A stretch of 64,000 nt of DNA from a virus (IMGVR_UViG_3300022188_000007:1-64000), one strand, 5' to 3'; shown: positions 7,817 to 23,343, counted from the first letter of the stretch. Program-made: numbers and translations. The notes: generated by a model from the letters alone, not told the origin.

Positions 7817-7892
7817 CACTATATTACACAGCCACATATTTTAATTGAAATATGTGAATAGTTTTAAAATAAACAGACAAAAAGGAGAAAGC

Positions 7893-8921
7893 ATGCGGAA
7901 ATTATCAGGTATTTATAATATAATAAATAATGTAAAGGGGTTATCAAAATTAGGTTATTGTAGACCTACATTAGCTGAAATATTTAATCCAAGTGAGGAT
8001 TTTAAACCTTTATGGTGTGCTGGTGGGGCAATACCTGCCTGGTTTCCACCAGATGAAGATTGGGAAGGTTACCCTGTATGGCCAGGAGCACCTGAAGAGG
8101 AGCCTGACCACTTACCGCCGTATCCCCCTAAATTAGGTGTAATACCTTGGCCTAGTCCAGATATGCCTTATGACGGGAGTGAGGGCGAAGGTGAGGGCGA
8201 GGGCGAAGGTGAGGGCGAGGGCGAGAGTTCTTCGACAGTCCCAATTGCTCCGGTTATATCTGACACATCTATAAATGGGACTACAGCAATAATAGTAGTT
8301 ACTCCTGATGTAACAGCTGACCCTGTAGTTACACAATATACAGCAACATCTTCACCTGGAGGACTTACAGGTACAGTAACTAATGTAGATGACCATTTTA
8401 CTAGCGGTACAATTAGTGTGGAAGGACTTACTAGTGGTGTAAATTATACATTTACAGTTACCTCAACTAATGCTATAGGACCTAGTACAAGCAGTATACC
8501 TAGTAATTCCATTTTAGCCGGTGATACTGGCAACAATATAAAGTTTAAAGTCTCTGACAGTAATATGGAAACTTATATGGTTCAAGGAAATGATGGTGTA
8601 GGTAGTTCTGTACTCTTTTATGAGAATCAAAGCCCAACAACATTCCCTTTTGATTATGCTTACGATACAAAACCCGTCAACTTTGAATTTAGTAATGTAT
8701 TAAATACTAATTATAGTAGTTTAGTTTCAAAAATAGAACTACTTGAATCCAATATTTGGGTGGACCGTACCAATTCAATTAATTGGAATGCGTTTGGTGA
8801 TATAAGTTGGACAGGTGCTGCTTGGGATATGTACGGCGATGCTAGATTAGAAATAGCTTTTGGTGATGGTTCTTATAGACCTATGCAAATTAGACTTACT
8901 TATTCTATTTCTTTAATATAA
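7893..8921 (+). CDS. RPT module + Pro-rich/(GE)n linker + fibronectin type III domain protein
   Basis: ATG at 7893 follows an AAGGAG RBS. FN3 motif YTATSSPGG..ISVEGLTSGVNYTFTVTSTNAIGPS..SN; (GE)7-type run. Confidence 0.75.
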   Translation: MRKLSGIYNIINNVKGLSKLGYCRPTLAEIFNPSEDFKPLWCAGGAIPAWFPPDEDWEGYPVWPGAPEEEPDHLPPYPPKLGVIPWPSPDMPYDGSEGEGEGEGEGEGEGESSSTVPIAPVISDTSINGTTAIIVVTPDVTADPVVTQYTATSSPGGLTGTVTNVDDHFTSGTISVEGLTSGVNYTFTVTSTNAIGPSTSSIPSNSILAGDTGNNIKFKVSDSNMETYMVQGNDGVGSSVLFYENQSPTTFPFDYAYDTKPVNFEFSNVLNTNYSSLVSKIELLESNIWVDRTNSINWNAFGDISWTGAAWDMYGDARLEIAFGDGSYRPMQIRLTYSISLI

Positions 8922-8955: not shown

Positions 8956-9600
8956 ATGGGGATACATCATTTAGTCTCATTCTCGGGAGGTTTTGATAGT
9001 ACCTGCGCTGTTTTTTTGCAACTACAAGAAGGTAGCATGCCGGTACATATACACCATATTAATCTTATTAATAGGGAACGTAGAGATATAGCCGAACGAC
9101 TAGCTATTGTAGATATACTTGATTGGCTACGAGACAGCTATACTTTTACATACTCCGAATCTGTGTGTGATGTGAGGCAGGATTCGAAGAGATTTATGTC
9201 GTATGATTATAGATATTATCTACCTATACTGTGTGGTGTTGCATTGAACATGCCCTGTAAAAGAGTTGTACTCAATCTCGGCATTGTAGGATCAAGTGGT
9301 CCAGCGTACAAACCTGGTGGTATACCTTATGAGTTTATAAAAAATTGTTATTTTTTATATAGGAAAGAACACCTTATAAAATTAACGCCTGATATAATGT
9401 GCCCGACATTAGTAGGAAGCAAAAAAAAATTATTAACGTTAATACCACCCGAGTTAGCACGACTAACACATAGCTGCCGTATGCCTTACTTTAAAAATAC
9501 TAAATGGTTAAATTGTGGAAAATGTCGTACGTGCAAGGAAATGAAATTAACTAGAGGGTCGTTTAGAAATACTGACTTTGTTACTGCATTTTTAGAATAA
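8956..9600 (+). CDS. QueC-like (7-cyano-7-deazaguanine synthase-like) PP-loop ATPase
   Basis: FSGGFDST PP-loop; THSC..CGKCRTC zinc site. Confidence 0.7.
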   Translation: MGIHHLVSFSGGFDSTCAVFLQLQEGSMPVHIHHINLINRERRDIAERLAIVDILDWLRDSYTFTYSESVCDVRQDSKRFMSYDYRYYLPILCGVALNMPCKRVVLNLGIVGSSGPAYKPGGIPYEFIKNCYFLYRKEHLIKLTPDIMCPTLVGSKKKLLTLIPPELARLTHSCRMPYFKNTKWLNCGKCRTCKEMKLTRGSFRNTDFVTAFLE

Positions 9601-9635: not shown

Positions 9636-9676
9636 TTGAGGCCTGTCATAAGTATTATTTATTCGACAGGCCTCAA
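9636..9676. terminator. Hairpin between convergent genes (bidirectional terminator)
   Basis: TTGAGGCCTGTC..GACAGGCCTCAA, perfect 12-bp stem. Confidence 0.75.
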
Positions 9677-9694: not shown

Positions 9695-10204
9695 TTATCT
9701 AGGAATAGAGCTAGAATATACAGGTTGTTGGGGACGAGCTTTGAAATTAGGAAGTGTTGTACTGGGAGTATAACCTAAGCCCTCCTGCAAGCACTGTGAC
9801 TGTGGTATTTCATCTCGTTGGTCTTTAATACCATTAACAGCTGCTTGTGTTATCAATGACTTACTTATTCCGGCTTCTGTAGCACACATACATAATTGAT
9901 CTATGTCTATTTTTCTGTCTGCGGCGTATAGATTAACTAAAACCTCATACGGGTTGTACTTTAAATCTACTGACGTTTTCATGACCTCACAAGTGGGATA
10001 GTCTTTATTGGTAGCTAACAATGCTTTGTATGCAGTTTTAAGGATGTCTGAATCATCTTGCGTGTACCCTAGTCCATCAGATTTAGAATTAATTTGCTTA
10101 CCTTTAATTAAAGCTTTAATTAAAGCATCTTCGCCATCAAAGGCTAAAGCGGTAGAATAAGTACCTATAAGTAATACAATTAGTAATATTATTAATTTTT
10201 TCAT
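9695..10204 (-). CDS. Secreted hypothetical protein with duplicated GLGYT motif
   Basis: Sec signal peptide (MKKLIILLIVLLIGTYSTALA); GLGYTQ and GLGYTP; four Cys; start overlaps the stop of the upstream peptide gene. Confidence 0.7.
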   Translation of the reverse strand: MKKLIILLIVLLIGTYSTALAFDGEDALIKALIKGKQINSKSDGLGYTQDDSDILKTAYKALLATNKDYPTCEVMKTSVDLKYNPYEVLVNLYAADRKIDIDQLCMCATEAGISKSLITQAAVNGIKDQRDEIPQSQCLQEGLGYTPSTTLPNFKARPQQPVYSSSIPR

Positions 10205-10392
10205 ACTGAATGTGGTCTCCTTCCCAATATAACCTCTTTACATCTAGTAAGAAAACTAATACTTGGTAAATTGGGCCGCTCCCATGGGGGTTTAGGCTTC
10301 CAGTCTCCTGAATTGCATATAAATACTGTTTCTATAGGCCTCATTAGTTCTGATACTGCTTGGCACTTTGGTTTTATCCATGTTTTTTTCAT
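10201..10392 (-). CDS. Small peptide resembling RiPP precursor leaders (two W-x-[KR]-P motifs)
   Basis: MKKTWIKPK.. and ..PWERPNL..; GAGGAGG RBS; ATGA overlaps with both neighbours. Confidence 0.6.
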   Translation of the reverse strand: MKKTWIKPKCQAVSELMRPIETVFICNSGDWKPKPPWERPNLPSISFLTRCKEVILGRRPHSV

Positions 10393-11219
10393 AATAGATC
10401 CTCCTCTATTTTTTTAATAATATTTTTTGATAAATTAAAATATAATTCTCTATGTTTTACGTTTAGTGTATTAAATATCCTATTAGTATATTCTCTAGTT
10501 AACATTAAATAATCTACACTATGTTTATAGAAAGCTAGTTGAGCATTAGTTTTTTTTAATATAAATGGATCAACATGATGATTTAAATAATATACTCTAT
10601 CTACTACTGAGGTCACATTATTAGCTCTATTATAAGAACCATGGCACCAGTGTCCATACATTTTGTTTTTAAGGACTAGTGTTCTATCATCACATAGCAG
10701 AGTCCACCCCTCAACCTCTAGCATCCTTGTTAGTGTCGATTTACCTCTCCCAGAGTCACCTAATAAAATAATTCCTTTATTATTTTTGGTCAGTCCATTA
10801 CCATGCAATAATAGGCCCTCGTTCTTAACTAAATAGGGGTAAAACATTAATTGATCAGAATAAAATAGACATAAATTATTCATTAGGTTTTTATCGTAGT
10901 GTTGTTTCATATGTCTAGGTAACTGTATTATCCAATCAGTATGAGCTTCATTTACTATACCTTTTATTTTATAAGGTTTATAATAATAATGATATAAATT
11001 ATTTTTATCCTTTTGTATAAGCCAATACTTATTTTTAAAAACAATAGTTAACTTTTTAAATGGATTAGTTCGTAATTTAAATACATGTGTAATTTTAATG
11101 TTTGGCTTGGATTTTGCATATTTAAATTTTAATACATTTTCAGTAAACACTAATTCTGCAGGGGTAGGGGTAGTTACTTTGATAACACAATTACAAAATT
11201 TAAAATAGGTCTTATCCAT
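10389..11219 (-). CDS. HprK-related P-loop kinase
   Basis: LLLHGNG..GIILLGDSGRGKSTL..LLCDDR..YGHWCHG. Start probably ATG 11219, about 7 nt after the -10 box (possibly leaderless). Confidence 0.8.
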   Translation of the reverse strand: MDKTYFKFCNCVIKVTTPTPAELVFTENVLKFKYAKSKPNIKITHVFKLRTNPFKKLTIVFKNKYWLIQKDKNNLYHYYYKPYKIKGIVNEAHTDWIIQLPRHMKQHYDKNLMNNLCLFYSDQLMFYPYLVKNEGLLLHGNGLTKNNKGIILLGDSGRGKSTLTRMLEVEGWTLLCDDRTLVLKNKMYGHWCHGSYNRANNVTSVVDRVYYLNHHVDPFILKKTNAQLAFYKHSVDYLMLTREYTNRIFNTLNVKHRELYFNLSKNIIKKIEEDLL

Positions 11220-11226
11220 AACTAAT

Positions 11227-11254
11227 AATATATACATTAATTCATATTTGTCAA
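11227..11254 (-). promoter_or_regulatory. Sigma70-type promoter for the minus-strand cassette
   Basis: TTGACA-N16-TATATT on the minus strand. Confidence 0.7.
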
Positions 11255-11387: not shown

Positions 11388-12047
11388 ATGAACAAATTAC
11401 TTACATACATTAGCATGTTTTTATTAGTGCTATGTATAAGTACAACTACAAACGCTACGCCGACGTATGTCAACATAGGGGACCGCATTCAAGGAATCGA
11501 TTATAATCCTTTGACCAATGCGGGCGAATTTACTTTGTACGATATAGACACCGGTTATGAGTGGAAGTCTTTCTGTCTAGAAATCAATTCAGCGCTGCCA
11601 CAGCTTACTTATGTAGGAGGATTAAGTGACTCCGCTATACCAGGAGGGGCTGGAGGGGCGGCTTCAACAGGAGACCCTATATCAGATCTTACTGCCTGGT
11701 TATATATCTCATCTCAAACTAATTCGTTATTTGGGTATGATGGTTCTAATAAAGATGCGTATGATTTACAGAATTTAATTTGGTTTGAAGAAGAAGAATT
11801 AACATATGAGGCTACTTATATGGATATGGGTCAGGTTCTACAATGGAGGACTGATTTTGCCTTATCTAATTGGAAAAATGCTGGGGCAGTACAAGTAGTT
11901 AACTTATATACAGATTCGGCTTTTAAAATACATGCACAGGACCAATTAATACTTACACCTACGGTTCCGGAACCAACCACGTTAGTTCTTCTTGGGTGTG
12001 GGTTATTATTTATAGCTTCTTTATATAGAAAGAAAATATTAAATTGA
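11388..12047 (+). CDS. PEP-CTERM sorting domain-containing exported protein
   Basis: Signal peptide; GEF..SFCLE..TAWLY..LQNLIW.EEE..VVNL..AQDQL body; C-terminal VPEPTTLVLLGCGLLFIASLYRKK (VPEP + TM + basic tail). Confidence 0.92.
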   Translation: MNKLLTYISMFLLVLCISTTTNATPTYVNIGDRIQGIDYNPLTNAGEFTLYDIDTGYEWKSFCLEINSALPQLTYVGGLSDSAIPGGAGGAASTGDPISDLTAWLYISSQTNSLFGYDGSNKDAYDLQNLIWFEEEELTYEATYMDMGQVLQWRTDFALSNWKNAGAVQVVNLYTDSAFKIHAQDQLILTPTVPEPTTLVLLGCGLLFIASLYRKKILN

Positions 12048-12187: not shown

Positions 12188-13279
12188 ATGCTTTTTAAAA
12201 AACTCAGTTTAATGGTTGTAGCACTTTTTGTTCTAACTTACGGAACGTCATTTGCATTAGAAATTAACATCACAGAAAATTTTAATGGTTATATTCTCAC
12301 TGGAGAGAATACTGTAGCTACAGAACTTATTCTGGAAGATACAATAATTAACACAACTACTGGAGAAAAAACTTATATAAAAGATCAACTTATAAGTAAT
12401 GACTCTACTGCTAAAGTGATAACCAAAACCTTAAAACTAGACACTTTACCTACAATTATGGAGTACGGTCCTTTGGGCGAAAGACAAGGGGTTTTCTATA
12501 CAGGCAAATCTATTGTTTTAACTAAAGGTATATCAGAGTGGTATCATTTTTCAGGGGTAATGTTCGATCTAGACGTGCCTTGTGATACCTTAGCTATGAC
12601 ATTTAGTTATCTAAATAATAAAAACTCCCAAACAGGTAAAGTTAAGATCATAATTCAAGAAGTGGACCCTAGTAATAATGTCATCTGGGAAAGTGTTTGG
12701 GGAATAACCGGTTATAAGACCTATATTGACGGGTGGGAGGACATGGATCTACCAGCTAGTAGATTCGAACCCAGACTAGCCGGCAGAACCTTTAATAGGG
12801 TATGGTTGATTGAGACTGAACTATACCTAGATATCACTAGCGGACAGAATTCAGGTGGTTATTTTGATAGTGTGTCAATAAAGGCTACTAGTATAATAGA
12901 AGAACTACCTCAAGAAGAGCCTATGGATAAAGACATAACACCTCCTGTAGAAGAACCTGAAATAGATCCTGAGCTTCTAACCGATGATGTAATAGACACT
13001 ATTTTAACTGATGATATAACTGTGTCTAATGAATTATTAGAATTACTAGCTATATCAGAGAATACTTGTCCTGCTAGTAACGGATGGAAGAATCATGGTA
13101 AATATGTTAAATGTGTTACTAAACTTAAAAAAGAACTCAAGGGTGATTTTAGTGCTCAATCTCTGAAAGATATGAAGAAAATAGCAGCTAAATCTAATAT
13201 AGGTAAACGAAGTATTAAAACAAATAAAAAAATTAAAAGATGTAGCAGAAAAAATATAAGGAAACAAATAAAAAATTAA
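12188..13279 (+). CDS. Secreted protein with acidic Pro-rich linker and C-terminal WKNHGKYV.CV domain
   Basis: Signal peptide; beta-rich body; CP..GWKNHGKYVKCV..AAKSNIGK tail of a kind seen in secreted bacterial proteins. Confidence 0.65.
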   Translation: MLFKKLSLMVVALFVLTYGTSFALEINITENFNGYILTGENTVATELILEDTIINTTTGEKTYIKDQLISNDSTAKVITKTLKLDTLPTIMEYGPLGERQGVFYTGKSIVLTKGISEWYHFSGVMFDLDVPCDTLAMTFSYLNNKNSQTGKVKIIIQEVDPSNNVIWESVWGITGYKTYIDGWEDMDLPASRFEPRLAGRTFNRVWLIETELYLDITSGQNSGGYFDSVSIKATSIIEELPQEEPMDKDITPPVEEPEIDPELLTDDVIDTILTDDITVSNELLELLAISENTCPASNGWKNHGKYVKCVTKLKKELKGDFSAQSLKDMKKIAAKSNIGKRSIKTNKKIKRCSRKNIRKQIKN

Positions 13280-13300: not shown

Positions 13301-13339
13301 AAAAAATGCTAGTCTTTAATTAGGCTGGCGTTTTTTTTT
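13301..13339 (+). terminator. Rho-independent terminator
   Basis: AAAAAATGCTAGTCT..AGGCTGGCGTTTTTTTTT. Confidence 0.75.
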
Positions 13340-13345
13340 GTATTT

Positions 13346-13370
13346 TAAACTAACCTTATTATAGATGAAG
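13346..13370 (+). promoter_or_regulatory. Phage-specific upstream motif, copy 4
   Basis: TAAACTAACCT-tat-TATAG. Confidence 0.6.
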
Positions 13371-13468
13371 TAGTGTTTCTAACCAGACATGTGACTCAAT
13401 TCCCTACTTTATGAAAACCATTTCGCATTCATTTAGAGCCGTTAGACGCGTTGCTATATAATAATCCC

Positions 13469-13496
13469 TTGACAAATTAATTTTATGTACTATATT
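13469..13496 (+). promoter_or_regulatory. Sigma70-type promoter
   Basis: TTGACA-N16-TATATT. Confidence 0.7.
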
Positions 13497-13794
13497 ATAT
13501 TTATGACTAATTAGTAACGGAGGTATTATTTTGAAAGAAAGACCAAAGAGAAAAAGAATTAATGAAAAAAATGCACCTATTAAATATAACACTGATAGTG
13601 GGCGTGGTCCATGTAAGGAGTGTGGTTATACCATATTTATTAAAGAATACAGCATGGAGGTATGTAATAACTGTGGACAACGATATGATAGCCTCTAAAA
13701 AGAATAGTAGCGATCAATGGTATTGGTGCAAATATTGTTTAAATGTAGTAAAATTGGGACATAAATGTATAACTTTAAGAAAAAGGAAAAACTA

Positions 13795-20241: not shown

Positions 20242-23200
20242 ATGGAAATAGGCTTAATAAACTATATCAAAAACATGTTCTCCATGGAGACAACCCCTGT
20301 ATGGAACTCCAGTTATGAGGGTGTAATTTTTTATGATAAAAATTCTAGAAAATGGGTCTCAGGTAATAATGAGGGTTTCCAGGTTTTAGATAGAAGCAGC
20401 ACAATGGTATCAGGAATAGCACCAATTGATTGGATCGACCCCTTTGAATATCCTACCGATGAAATTCTTAGAAATAATTATACAGTAACAGATCTAGGTG
20501 AACAACCCGCAGCAACTCTAACTAAATCAGTGATATTAGATATAACTGATAATTGGGGAGGCGCTAGTGCAGTAATGTGTAGAGAAGTAGATTTTTATTT
20601 TGAAGGTATTAAATTACCACTAATTCCTTCAGATTACATAGTCTATGGGCAGGCTCATTCTACTCCATACGAGGTTGCTAATTTATTCGATACTGATACC
20701 AGCTTAATAGATGCACATATAGATAATGGGTGGCAACAAAATACATCTAGTTCTACAAGGGTAATTATAGTTTTCAACACATCACAATTATTTGATAGTA
20801 TAATAGTTAATAATCATCACACCACTGGTACTGCTACTGAGTGGGGCATCCAAAACGTTAAAATTACTATAACACCTGATATTGAAAGTAATACAACCTA
20901 CGATGCCGTTATTACTAATGGGGTTCTGATATTTGACGGTGTATTTGATAGGCATAGTTCAGTTAATGAAGTGGATGCGCAGACACTGGTATTACAAAAT
21001 TTAGTAGCTGTATCTACATTAGATATCTATGTAGATAACACTAATACTACTTACGGAGATTACTCATTAAAAGGTATAGCTACTCTTTCAGGTTCGATAG
21101 GTTCTAGTATCACCAAAACCATGCTACCAGAAATAAACACGATAGATAAAGAAATATTAGCGTTTGATATTAAATCTTCTAGGGTGGGTACTAACCTTGA
21201 GCTACAATTATTAAAAGAGACGGAAGCTTCAACTTCTATAGTAATAGATATAGCAAATGATTGGGGTGGAGCAGAAACCTATATGTCGATAAGAAGTGTG
21301 GAATTTTTAGACAGTGAAGGGGCCGTAATACCGTTAACAACTAATTTTACGGCTTACTCAACATCAGTATACCCAGGCTATGCTGCAAGTATGGCCTTTA
21401 ATACCGACCTTTTAAAAGTAGGTTCTTGGAGCACAAATGCTTGGATTTCAGTTCAAGGCTCTCAAACTAATCAAAGATTGATATGTGTATTTGACAACCC
21501 TCGTACAGTCTACGGGATAATAATTAATAATGGGCATCATCTTGGGGGCTATGTCACACAAGGAGTTAAAGATATTAAAATCTATGCTTCAACTGACACA
21601 ATTACATCTACTATATATGATGAAATTATTACAAATTCTATACTAGCCTATGATGGCCAAATTGACCAGCATGTACCTAGTGATGTAGTAGATGATCAAC
21701 CATTAGAAATAACTAGTCACGCATTGGAAAGGTATAATATAGACATACCACAAGCTAACACTTTTGTATCTAAAGAATTAGATATAACCACCAGTTCTGG
21801 GGTATTTAATAAACTCAAGTTAGAAATATTAAATGATGATTTAGATAATACTTTTTATATCGATAACATGCGATTTAAGGCACCAGAGCCAATTCATTGG
21901 ATTGATCCTATAGAATACCCCACTAATGATATAATAAGAAATAACTATATATCCACAACTCCAGGTACTGAAAGTTTAACAACCAAATCTATAATATTTG
22001 ATATAACCAATAATTGGGGGGATGGTGATTTTATGGGAGTCAGAGTAATAGAATTTTTATTTGAGGGCTCTGTAATATCAAACATACCCACAACTAATTT
22101 TATATCCTATGCTACTTCAAACCTCACAGACAGTTATCACCATGAGCATGCTTTTGATACTTCTCAACCAAAAGACGGCGGGGCTGCTGATAATGACTGG
22201 TTGAGTACTAACGGACAAACAACTAATCAGAGGTTAATATGTGTTTTTAATACACCCACTACATTTGATTCGATAGTGATAAATAATAGTACAAGTAGCG
22301 CCAATAGAGGAATTAAAGATTTTAAAATTACAATGTCTGATGATGCGATTACATCTACAATATATGATGCAGTAATAGCAAATTCAGTGGTTATTTTTGA
22401 AGGGCAGATAGATACACACGAAGTATCAGTACCGTCTGACGATCAAATATTATTTATACCTCTATTAGGTCCTACTCCTTTACAAGTGTACTCAGAAAAT
22501 AGTATTAATACTTATGGTAATTACTCTCTAAAAGCTATTGCTGAGATATCCGCCTCACAAAACGAGCAACTTGGTAAAATACTTTCCCCGGTTGTAGACA
22601 CTTCTACCATAACTAATATTAAATTCGATGTAAGATCTTCTAGGGTAGGAACAAATATTCAAGTACAATTAAAAAATGAAACTACTTACACTGCCAAGTC
22701 AGTAATTATTGACATCACAGATAACTGGGGATTAAACACTTTAAACCTAAGAGCTATGGATTTCTTTTTAGATGATGTATTAATACCAATAACTATATCT
22801 GATATCACATCTTATGAAACTACAAAGTATGATGCTCAGTATCCTGCCTCTAATGTATTTGTAACTTCTTTATCTAGAATTGGAACCCATGTAAGTACAA
22901 GTTGGAATGGTTCGGCGGATGCTGTTACTTTTCAAAGATTAATATGCGTATTCAATTCACCTATCACCTTTAACAAAATAGAGATGATTAATTGCCATGT
23001 ATCAGGGGCTAACACAGGTAGTGGCCTTAAAAATACTATAGTGACTATTTCTGATGATACCATAACTTCTACGGTGTATGGGGCTGGGATAACTAACTCT
23101 ACTGTATTATTTGATGGTGTTATAGATGAGCATTCTCTAATAGATGAAGCAGATGAACAAGTTATAATAGATAGTTACGACGTAGGAACAACACATAATA

Positions 23201-23343
23201 TAAACATACAGAATATAAATACTTTTCAGACAGAAACCTGGGATTTAACTACAGCTTCCGGTATTTACGATACACTGACTTTTACAGTATTAAATGATGA
23301 TTTAGAAAATACTTTTTATATCGATAACATAATTAAGGTATAA
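20242..23343 (+). CDS. Large repeat-built beta-sandwich protein (two CBM-like frames, each with two nested discoidin-like inserts); probable virion adhesin
   Basis: Four S[VI]I.DI.[DN]NWG..R..[DE]F units; two PI.WIDP.EYPT..I.RNNY ... LNDDL[DE]NTFYIDN frames. Confidence 0.65.
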   Translation: MEIGLINYIKNMFSMETTPVWNSSYEGVIFYDKNSRKWVSGNNEGFQVLDRSSTMVSGIAPIDWIDPFEYPTDEILRNNYTVTDLGEQPAATLTKSVILDITDNWGGASAVMCREVDFYFEGIKLPLIPSDYIVYGQAHSTPYEVANLFDTDTSLIDAHIDNGWQQNTSSSTRVIIVFNTSQLFDSIIVNNHHTTGTATEWGIQNVKITITPDIESNTTYDAVITNGVLIFDGVFDRHSSVNEVDAQTLVLQNLVAVSTLDIYVDNTNTTYGDYSLKGIATLSGSIGSSITKTMLPEINTIDKEILAFDIKSSRVGTNLELQLLKETEASTSIVIDIANDWGGAETYMSIRSVEFLDSEGAVIPLTTNFTAYSTSVYPGYAASMAFNTDLLKVGSWSTNAWISVQGSQTNQRLICVFDNPRTVYGIIINNGHHLGGYVTQGVKDIKIYASTDTITSTIYDEIITNSILAYDGQIDQHVPSDVVDDQPLEITSHALERYNIDIPQANTFVSKELDITTSSGVFNKLKLEILNDDLDNTFYIDNMRFKAPEPIHWIDPIEYPTNDIIRNNYISTTPGTESLTTKSIIFDITNNWGDGDFMGVRVIEFLFEGSVISNIPTTNFISYATSNLTDSYHHEHAFDTSQPKDGGAADNDWLSTNGQTTNQRLICVFNTPTTFDSIVINNSTSSANRGIKDFKITMSDDAITSTIYDAVIANSVVIFEGQIDTHEVSVPSDDQILFIPLLGPTPLQVYSENSINTYGNYSLKAIAEISASQNEQLGKILSPVVDTSTITNIKFDVRSSRVGTNIQVQLKNETTYTAKSVIIDITDNWGLNTLNLRAMDFFLDDVLIPITISDITSYETTKYDAQYPASNVFVTSLSRIGTHVSTSWNGSADAVTFQRLICVFNSPITFNKIEMINCHVSGANTGSGLKNTIVTISDDTITSTVYGAGITNSTVLFDGVIDEHSLIDEADEQVIIDSYDVGTTHNINIQNINTFQTETWDLTTASGIYDTLTFTVLNDDLENTFYIDNIIKV

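What the first reader, a model, noticed from the sequence alone, without database searches (positions are those of the whole stretch)
9695..11254. Inverted three-gene cassette: HprK-like kinase, double-leader RiPP-like peptide and secreted protein
Seen: these are the only credible minus-strand genes in 64 kb. They have their own TTGACA-N16-TATATT promoter, ATGA-coupled reading frames and a 12-bp terminator hairpin. The 63-aa peptide has two tandem segments of similar layout: WIKPKCQAVSELMRPIETVFIC and WERPNLPSISFLTRCKEVILG. Established: W/Y-x-x-P-x-L is the leader motif bound by RRE/PqqD domains in lasso and radical-SAM RiPPs, and HprK-related kinases occur in such clusters. From memory, this kinase subtype (DQ..LH..G..GKST..LCDDR..G.W.HG) sits next to radical SAM and PqqD genes in deltaproteobacteria. 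Inference: no RRE, radical SAM or leader peptidase is in this window, so the phage may carry a minimal module that either borrows host RiPP enzymes or uses the double leader as a decoy for them.
Basis: partly seen in the sequence, partly recalled or inferred. Interest (0 to 1): 0.78.

Follow-up and report, generated by a model that had tools for sequence, protein, structure and literature searches.

The report
Phage copy of peptide-phosphorylation cassette
A large uncultured phage carries a cut-down copy (kinase-like enzyme, small precursor peptide, secreted helper protein) of a peptide-modifying gene set that sulfate-reducing Desulfobacteraceae keep inside their slime (exopolysaccharide) loci; it lacks the peptide-binding chaperone, leader peptidase and exporter, so it probably depends on, or interferes with, the host's own pathway.

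Summary
The three minus-strand genes are real, translationally coupled and framed by a strong promoter-like site and a hairpin. All three have homologues in one conserved locus of Desulfobacteraceae, embedded in PEP-CTERM/exopolysaccharide gene clusters. [quoted passage not shown] This is the gene set of the linear polyphosphorylated peptide (LPP) pathway characterised in Bacillota in 2026.

The phage keeps only the kinase, the precursor and a periplasmic helical protein, next to a Desulfobacula-like PEP-CTERM protein. No RRE, peptidase, exporter, radical SAM or lasso cyclase was found in the 144-kb record or in two related phage records.

Kinase and peptide co-occur in all three phage records long enough to judge. 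The "double leader" is marginal (p = 0.02) and not conserved.

Best reading: a host-derived minimal module whose kinase phosphorylates a conserved Ser just after the leader; maturation would need host enzymes. Function is untested.

Earlier scan notes described bacterial versions of this cassette on other DNA; none described a phage copy.

The parts
11227..11254 (-). sigma-70-like promoter TTGACA-16-TATATT
   Evidence: 11 of 12 matches, the best in the region. It would place the transcription start within a few bases of ATG 11219.
10389..11237 (-). HprK/PEPCK-fold P-loop kinase-like protein (LppK-like); probable true start is ATG 11219
   Evidence: Weak hits to HprK_rel_A, ScmC and HprK_rel_B. 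AF2 model pLDDT 92.6. Foldseek matches ATP-PEPCK and HprK/P at probability 1.0. His145, the GxSGxGKST P-loop and Asp183-Asp184 align with HprK catalytic motifs. 883 distant relatives.
10201..10392 (-). 63-aa precursor peptide: leader W5-x-K-P8, I-E21-T22 junction motif, invariant S28-G29, conserved C-terminal half
   Evidence: Homologous peptides at L002:10854-11039 and L001:875-1060. Shares its leader with precursors in 20 of 33 bacterial loci. Strong SD and ATGA coupling.
9695..10204 (-). 169-aa secreted (signal-peptide) all-helical protein with four conserved Cys and two GLGYT(P) motifs
   Evidence: 47% identity to L001:1057-1557, which is likewise coupled to the peptide gene. Homologues in the same Desulfobacteraceae loci. 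AF2 model all-helical, pLDDT 75. No structural match.
9636..9676 (-). terminator-like hairpin between convergent genes, followed by a U-rich tail
   Evidence: dG -21.6 kcal/mol, z = -4.7 against shuffles.
11388..12047 (+). divergently transcribed PEP-CTERM protein (neighbour, same host-locus theme, not part of the operon)
   Evidence: PF07589 and TIGR02595 above cut-off. Full-length 44%-identical homologue in a Desulfobacula genome. PEP-CTERM proteins sit in 19 of 33 bacterial kinase loci.

Best explanation
The cassette is a reduced, host-derived copy of an LPP-like (linear polyphosphorylated peptide) RiPP pathway that Desulfobacteraceae encode inside PEP-CTERM/exopolysaccharide loci. Shown: homology of all three genes to parts of that locus, one origin of the phage kinases, an intact ATP-binding and catalytic motif set, and repeated co-occurrence of kinase and peptide in phages. 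Inferred: the kinase uses ATP to phosphorylate the co-encoded peptide, most likely at the invariant Ser28, six residues after the E-T junction (the counterpart of Ser3 of LppA). Leader removal and export would then need the host's PqqD-type RRE, signal-peptidase-I-like peptidase and MsbA-like exporter, which the phage does not encode. The co-translated periplasmic helical protein would act on or with the exported product near the host's polysaccharide export machinery. The net effect would be remodelling of the infected cell's surface or slime pathway.
For: (1) The kinase has the HprK/PEPCK fold with conserved His, P-loop and Asp-Asp. (2) In 33 bacterial loci holding a kinase homologue, the neighbours were PqqD in 31, S26/SpI-like peptidase in 29, ABC exporter in 22, the sec169 homologue in 20, PEP-CTERM protein in 19, NTP_transf_5 in 18 and rSAM in 17. 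(3) These loci encode precursors with a K-K-x-W-x-K-P-x-L ... E-x-V-L leader, and the phage peptides share it. (4) All 12 type-A bacterial precursors and all 3 phage peptides have a Ser 3-7 residues after the E-[T/N/S/D/H] dipeptide (read). (5) Kinase and sec169 families co-occur in Desulfobacteraceae genomes: 35 of 44 sec169 genomes also hold the kinase, Fisher p = 5e-14 without correction for relatedness, and 27 of 29 same-contig pairs lie within 8 kb. (6) The eight phage kinases form one clade (SH-aLRT 100) nested in a 99-supported clade with Desulfobacteraceae. (7) Kinase and peptide are present in all three phage records of 29-189 kb. They are adjacent in two and 9 kb apart in the third, where the peptide is still coupled to the sec169 homologue. 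(8) In the characterised LPP system, LppK polyphosphorylates Ser3 of the core, the RRE LppB presents the F-E-T junction to the SpI-like LppS, and the cluster sits in capsule loci (PMC13381572). HprK-like lasso kinases phosphorylate linear precursors in vitro (PMC8498205).
Against: No biochemical data exist for this family. The kinase scores far below the cut-offs of every named HprK-related family, and orthology to LppK was not tested. The LPP leader consensus uses Y-x-x-P with Ser at +3; here it is W-x-K-P with Ser at +6. The phage records are 12-72% complete, so a missing RRE or peptidase could lie in unseen DNA. The host is inferred, not shown. One related phage (G001) has no sec169 homologue, so the third gene is not obligatory. 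The role of LPPs is unknown even in bacteria.
Confidence: 0.5

Rival explanations
1. Interference or decoy. The phage peptide, alone or after phosphorylation by the phage kinase, binds the host's PqqD-type RRE or peptidase through its W-x-x-P leader(s). It would titrate them and shut down or redirect the host peptide pathway linked to slime production.
For: The phage lacks RRE, peptidase and exporter. The window peptide carries a second exact W-x-x-P-x-L (W37-E-R-P-N-L). RRE-leader cross-binding between pathways is real and governed by the Y/W-x-x-P motif (PMC13381572). The phage peptides have a long phage-specific C-terminal half absent from the bacterial precursors.
Against: The second motif is not conserved in L002 and only partly in L001. 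A pure decoy would not need the kinase, yet kinase and peptide are always kept together. The junction motif and the Ser-Gly expected of a real substrate are conserved.
Confidence: 0.18
2. Radical-SAM RiPP. The peptide is a substrate for host radical SAM/SPASM maturases (for example a thioether at Cys26), and the kinase-like protein serves as their accessory subunit.
For: About 650-aa natural fusions of radical SAM/SPASM with this kinase domain exist. 17 of 33 bacterial loci hold radical SAM genes. The window and L002 peptides keep a Cys at the position of the conserved V-L-x-x-C of the Cys-rich precursor subtype.
Against: L001's peptide has no Cys there. The phage peptides lack the Cys-rich core and the terminal Ser of that subtype and resemble the type-A precursors. 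Radical SAM genes are missing from 16 of the 33 bacterial loci. No radical SAM or SPASM domain is in any of the three phage records.
Confidence: 0.12
3. The kinase targets something other than the peptide, such as the secreted helical protein, the neighbouring PEP-CTERM protein or a host protein like HPr. The small ORF would be an adaptor or regulator.
For: In five related phage contigs the kinase gene is followed directly by a secreted nuclease-like gene rather than by a peptide. Earlier scan notes on bacterial cassettes proposed exported proteins as substrates (untested here).
Against: In bacteria the kinase is consistently linked to an RRE and a leader-bearing peptide. Secreted proteins carry Sec signal peptides and would leave the cytoplasm unfolded. 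The sequence similarity to true HprK/P is confined to about 50 residues around the P-loop.
Confidence: 0.12
4. Decaying passenger DNA with no function in the phage.
For: The module is incomplete relative to the bacterial locus.
Against: The reading frames are intact, with strong ribosome sites and coupling. Catalytic motifs are invariant across eight phage kinases at 41-76% identity. The peptide and the secreted protein are conserved across phages at 47-51% identity. Base composition matches that of the surrounding phage DNA.
Confidence: 0.05

Closest known systems
Linear polyphosphorylated peptide (LPP) clusters, lppA-K-B-S-D-N of Paenibacillus alginolyticus (Popov et al., Nat Commun 2026, PMC13381572)
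   Same: Both have an HprK-like kinase and a precursor with a [Y/W]-x-x-P leader, an E-T leader end and a Ser a few residues later. [quoted passage not shown]
   Different: The phage has only the kinase and the precursor, plus a periplasmic protein that is not part of the described LPP core. The leader is W-x-K-P rather than Y-x-x-P, and the Ser is at +6 rather than +3. The source lineage is Gram-negative Thermodesulfobacteriota, whereas the paper describes LPPs as restricted to Bacillota. Half of the bacterial relatives add radical SAM/SPASM enzymes. Orthology to LppK and LppA was not tested by sequence.
Phosphorylated and phosphoglycosylated lasso peptides (paeninodin PadeK, pseudomycoidin PsmK/PsmN; reviewed in PMC8498205)
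   Same: An HprK-homologous kinase phosphorylates a Ser of a linear precursor that bears a W/Y-x-x-P leader, with a nucleotidyltransferase partner in the bacterial loci.
   Different: No lasso cyclase (Asn-synthase-like) is present in the phage records, and none appeared among the conserved neighbours in the bacterial loci. The target there is the C-terminal Ser; the phage peptides do not end in Ser.
SynChlorMet (SCM) cassette ScmC/ScmD/ScmE/ScmF and the 'HPr-rel-A system' (NCBIfam TIGR04249, TIGR04352, TIGR04355)
   Same: An HprK-related protein occurs together with a PqqD-family protein and radical SAM/SPASM enzymes. These are the best NCBIfam hits of the kinase.
   Different: Scores of 34-38 bits lie far below the family cut-offs of 125-200 bits. 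The phage has neither PqqD nor radical SAM.
HPr kinase/phosphorylase (HprK/P) and ATP-dependent PEP carboxykinase
   Same: Same fold. The P-loop, the preceding His and the Asp-Asp motif align.
   Different: No sequence similarity was found outside about 50 residues around the P-loop. The N-terminal domain superposes on PEPCK rather than on the HprK N-domain. Pfam and NCBIfam scores are below threshold.

Membership tests
LPP-type RiPP cluster (PMC13381572) | HprK-like kinase | tested here: met
   Fold and catalytic motifs are present. Met at superfamily level only; direct comparison with LppK was not possible.
LPP-type RiPP cluster (PMC13381572) | Precursor with an N-terminal [Y/W]xxP RRE-binding motif, an (F)ET leader end and a phospho-acceptor Ser just after it | tested here: met
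   W5-I-K-P8, I20-E21-T22 and S28 are conserved in the three phage peptides and in the type-A bacterial precursors. This is a motif-level match, not an alignment to LppA.
LPP-type RiPP cluster (PMC13381572) | Discrete PqqD-type RRE (LppB) | tested here: not met
   No PF05402 hit and no hit with an HMM of the bacterial loci's PqqD proteins in G000, G001 or G002. Present in 31 of 33 bacterial loci.
LPP-type RiPP cluster (PMC13381572) | Archaeal-type signal-peptidase-I-like leader peptidase (LppS) | tested here: not met
   No TIGR02228 hit and no locus-HMM hit in the phage records. Present in 29 of 33 bacterial loci.
LPP-type RiPP cluster (PMC13381572) | MsbA-like exporter and NTP transferase | tested here: not met
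   No significant locus-HMM hits in the 144-kb record or in the fetched parts of L001, L002, L004 and L005. Present in 22 and 18 of 33 bacterial loci.
LPP-type RiPP cluster (PMC13381572) | (Poly)phosphorylation of the precursor | not testable with these tools
   Needs mass spectrometry.
HPr kinase/phosphorylase (PF07475, TIGR00679) | Score above the curated cut-off | tested here: not met
   18 bits against 33.3, and 16.7 against 240.
HprK-related kinase A / B, ScmC (TIGR04352, TIGR04355, TIGR04249) | Score above the curated cut-off | tested here: not met
   38.1 against 200, 33.7 against 200, and 35.2 against 125.
Lasso peptide cluster | Asn-synthase-like macrolactam cyclase | tested here: not met
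   No PF00733 hit in G000, G001 or G002.
Radical SAM/SPASM RiPP cluster | Radical SAM and SPASM domains in the element | tested here: not met
   No PF04055 or PF13186 hit in G000, and no PF04055 hit in G001 or G002. Present in 17 of 33 bacterial loci and fused to the kinase in L016-L019.

The most novel reading that the evidence does not exclude
A jumbo phage of sulfate reducers uses a leader-peptide mimic plus its own kinase to plug into, or block, the host's RRE-dependent peptide pathway that is wired to PEP-CTERM/exopolysaccharide production. This would be a virus manipulating a RiPP pathway through leader-RRE recognition to change the infected cell's surface, for example for superinfection exclusion or for escape from the slime matrix.
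Probability: 0.2. Interest if true: 0.8.

Novelty: new variant of a known kind. Interest (0 to 1): 0.6.

Why it matters
The biological role of phosphorylated linear and lasso peptides is unknown; the 2026 paper can only suggest a link to biofilm. A phage that keeps just the kinase and the precursor, next to a PEP-CTERM protein and a periplasmic partner from the same host locus, gives a compact two-gene system to test. The test is whether kinase plus peptide suffices for modification, and what the product does to the host surface. The finding also shows that the LPP-type gene set reaches well beyond Bacillota, into Thermodesulfobacteriota, Planctomycetota, Omnitrophota and Lentisphaerota, where it is often joined or fused to radical SAM/SPASM enzymes. 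No homologue of the kinase was found in 50,697 deposited phage genomes or among BFVD phage structures, so this appears to be an undescribed kind of phage accessory module.

Tried and rejected
The 318-kb contig carrying the identical kinase and the 4.7-kb contig of the 76%-identical relative could not be read.
- A viral-contig scan with the single kinase found nothing. The alignment-based scan found two loci.
A single protein (P0017) worked.
- The word-index search for peptide homologues found only a 98%-identical copy. The homologues came from six-frame motif searches instead.
- NCBIfam has no model for any of the precursor peptides.
- The 169-aa protein has no match in Pfam, NCBIfam, PHROGs or PADLOC. 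Foldseek gave no match at E <= 0.001, and the ESM Atlas returned only hypothetical proteins.
- The metagenome contigs L003-L007 are not held as records, so the rest of them could not be searched.
- The SynChlorMet literature search returned only unrelated papers.
- Rejected: membership in true HprK/P; a lasso cluster; a known defence system; a recent transfer, because the cassette's GC content matches that of the phage.

Full report
**What is in the sequence**

The window is the first 64 kb of a 144,485-bp IMG/VR virus record that CheckV rates 55% complete. Three minus-strand ORFs lie at 10389-11237 (282 aa), 10201-10392 (63 aa) and 9695-10204 (169 aa).

- Both junctions are ATGA overlaps. The peptide and the third gene have strong Shine-Dalgarno sequences.
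- TTGACA-16-TATATT at 11254..11227 is the best promoter-like site in the region, with 11 of 12 matches.
- The -10 hexamer lies after the first ATG, and all homologues begin at residue 7. I therefore place the start at ATG 11219; the transcript would be almost leaderless.
- A hairpin at 9636-9676 (dG -21.6 kcal/mol, z = -4.7) closes the unit.
- All other minus-strand ORFs of 100 aa or more overlap longer plus-strand ORFs.
- GC content (28-35%) is the same as in the flanks.

**The kinase-like protein**

Named families hit only weakly. HprK_rel_A scores 38 bits, ScmC 35, HprK_rel_B 34 and Pfam Hpr_kinase_C 18, all far below their cut-offs.

- The close family is tiny: seven 90% clusters, all without names.
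- An exhaustive search finds 883 distant relatives. Most are about 300 aa; some are about 650-aa fusions with an N-terminal radical SAM/SPASM enzyme.
- An AlphaFold model built on 28 relatives is confident (pLDDT 92.6).
- Foldseek matches ATP-dependent PEP carboxykinases over both domains and HprK/P over the P-loop domain, all at probability 1.0.
- The profile aligns His145, the GxSGxGKST loop and Asp183-Asp184 with the corresponding HprK motifs. These residues are invariant in the eight phage proteins.
- No homologue exists in 50,697 deposited phage genomes. The only similar BFVD structures are giant-virus PEPCKs.

**Related phages**

- Locus L002 (189-kb record, 72% complete) has the kinase (47% identity) followed by a 61-aa peptide that shares the N-terminal block MK..W.KP....PIE.VFICNSG.W..PPW.
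- Locus L001 (29-kb record) has the kinase (49% identity). About 9 kb away lies a 61-aa homologous peptide with its own strong ribosome site. It overlaps the start of a 166-aa homologue (47% identity) of the window's secreted protein.
- In L001 and in four short metagenome contigs the kinase gene is instead followed by a secreted SNase-like gene.
- Kinase plus peptide is therefore the invariant pair in the three records long enough to judge. The secreted protein is present in two of them.

**Bacterial source locus**

The relative P0017 is HRM2_25490 of Desulforapulum autotrophicum. Thirteen genome loci and twenty more from Desulfobacteraceae were mapped.

A typical locus (L012) reads, in order: glycosyltransferases, NTP_transf_5, priming glycosyltransferase, VanZ, kinase homologue, PqqD-like protein, signal-peptidase-I-like protein (best hit archaeal-type TIGR02228), small peptide, PEP-CTERM protein, MsbA-like ABC exporter, a homologue of the phage's secreted protein, BBP2_2 porin, and Wza-like exporter. 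A radical SAM/SPASM gene lies 5 kb upstream. In other loci, such as L009, a PilZ gene lies between the ABC exporter and the secreted-protein homologue.

| Neighbour | Loci with it (of 33) |
|---|---|
| PqqD | 31 |
| S26-like peptidase | 29 |
| ABC exporter | 22 |
| Secreted-protein homologue | 20 |
| PEP-CTERM protein | 19 |
| NTP_transf_5 | 18 |
| Radical SAM | 17 |
| PilZ | 16 |

Among 151 sampled Desulfobacteraceae genomes, 51 have the kinase family and 44 the secreted-protein family, and 35 have both. Fisher p = 5e-14, not corrected for relatedness. Of 29 same-contig pairs, 27 lie within 8 kb.

The eight phage kinases form one clade (support 100). It is nested in a 99-supported clade with the Desulfobacteraceae sequences. 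The neighbouring phage PEP-CTERM protein (11388-12047) has a full-length homologue at 44% identity in a Desulfobacula genome.

**The peptide**

Twenty of the 33 bacterial loci yielded small ORFs with the leader K-K-x-W-x-(K/R)-P-x-L-x-x-I ... E-x-V-L. Two precursor types appear.

- Type A has a short Gly/Ser/Pro-rich core.
- Type B has a Cys-rich core that almost always ends in Ser. It accompanies radical SAM genes and the radical SAM-kinase fusions.

The phage peptides align with the leader and resemble type A. Compare ...ETVF-ICNSG... in the window with ...ENVL-EWNSG... in L038. All twelve type-A precursors and all three phage peptides have a Ser 3-7 residues after the E-[T/N/S/D/H] dipeptide.

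The C-terminal half is nevertheless conserved between the window and L001 (PW..P....SF.T..KE.I.G). It is under constraint, but not demonstrably as a second leader.

**What the phage lacks**

No PqqD, radical SAM, SPASM, signal-peptidase-I-like or Asn-synthase-like domain was found in the 144-kb record or in the two related records. HMMs built from the bacterial loci's own PqqD, S26, radical SAM, ABC, NTP_transf_5 and PilZ proteins also found nothing. The records are incomplete, so absence from the whole phage genome is not proven.

**Comparison with known systems**

Earlier notes of this scan on other genomes pointed to Popov et al. 2026 (PMC13381572), which I read.

- Their LPP clusters comprise lppA (precursor), lppK (HprK-like kinase), lppB (discrete RRE), lppS (archaeal-type signal peptidase I), lppD (MsbA-like pump) and lppN (NTP transferase). 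The clusters are embedded in capsule loci.
- The leader motif is YxxPxVLxHQxIxFETxxS, cleavage follows T-1, and LppK adds one to four phosphates to Ser3.
- LppS needs LppB to cleave, and unphosphorylated precursor is processed poorly.
- The Y or W of the motif decides which RRE binds.
- The paper calls LPPs restricted to Bacillota and states that their role is unknown.

The Desulfobacteraceae loci have the same enzyme set, a W-x-K-P leader, an E-T junction and a nearby Ser, so they are LPP-like. The phage cassette is a two-gene core of that system plus one accessory periplasmic protein. Lasso-type HprK homologues phosphorylate linear precursors in vitro (PMC8498205). A kinase-peptide pair could therefore plausibly work on its own.

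**Mechanism and its status**

- Shown: homology, linkage, intact motifs, and a single origin from a Desulfobacteraceae-like lineage.
- Inferred: ATP-dependent phosphorylation of Ser28, dependence on host RRE, peptidase and exporter for maturation, and a periplasmic role for the 169-aa protein. That protein is all-helical with four conserved Cys and two GLGYT motifs and has no structural relative.
- Rivals: interference with the host RRE (decoy); a host radical-SAM-modified product; another kinase substrate; passenger DNA.

I rate the main reading at 0.5. The finding is a new variant of a known kind, and to my searches the first phage-borne one.

Noticed in passing
window 20242-23343 (+): In this 1033-aa ORF, residues 1-41 (78% identity) and 1006-1033 (64%) match the two ends of a single 67-aa ORF in the related phage record G001 (13329-13529). 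The middle carries F5/8-type-C, DUF4457 and weak S41-peptidase hits. This suggests a ~960-aa insertion into, or growth of, a small gene.
   Followed up: partly
window 11388-12047 (+): The phage-encoded PEP-CTERM protein has a full-length homologue at 44% identity in a Desulfobacula genome (G006:C20:21014-21685). No exosortase was looked for. It is a hint to the host lineage.
   Followed up: partly
L001:10573-12463; L003-L006: In five related phage contigs the kinase gene is followed directly by a signal-peptide SNase-like nuclease (PF00565). In L001 an RlaP-type nucleotidyltransferase follows two genes later.
   Followed up: partly
L002:11050-11961 (-): A PilZ-domain protein (31.9 bits) and a PAS-HisKA protein converge on the peptide gene in the related 189-kb phage. 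PilZ genes also sit in 16 of 33 bacterial loci, but the phage PilZ did not match the HMM built from the loci's PilZ proteins.
   Followed up: partly
L016-L019 (Victivallales, Planctomycetota, Omnitrophota): These loci have natural fusions of a radical SAM/SPASM enzyme to the kinase domain. They hold several paralogous Cys-rich precursors, all but one of which end in Ser, an apparently undescribed hybrid of radical-SAM and kinase tailoring.
   Followed up: partly
window 7845-8921 (+) and 12188-13279 (+): The cassette sits in a small island of surface or secreted proteins. On one side is an fn3-containing protein with a (GE)n linker. On the other is a 363-aa signal-peptide protein without family hits.
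   Followed up: no
window 8956-9600 (+): A divergent QueC-like protein (phrog_1550 E = 7e-15; Pfam QueC only over residues 6-52) converges on the cassette.
   Followed up: no
P0001-P0007: All close kinase homologues carry a precomputed Pfam accession PF27840.1. It is absent from the Pfam copy available here, so its name could not be read.
   Followed up: no
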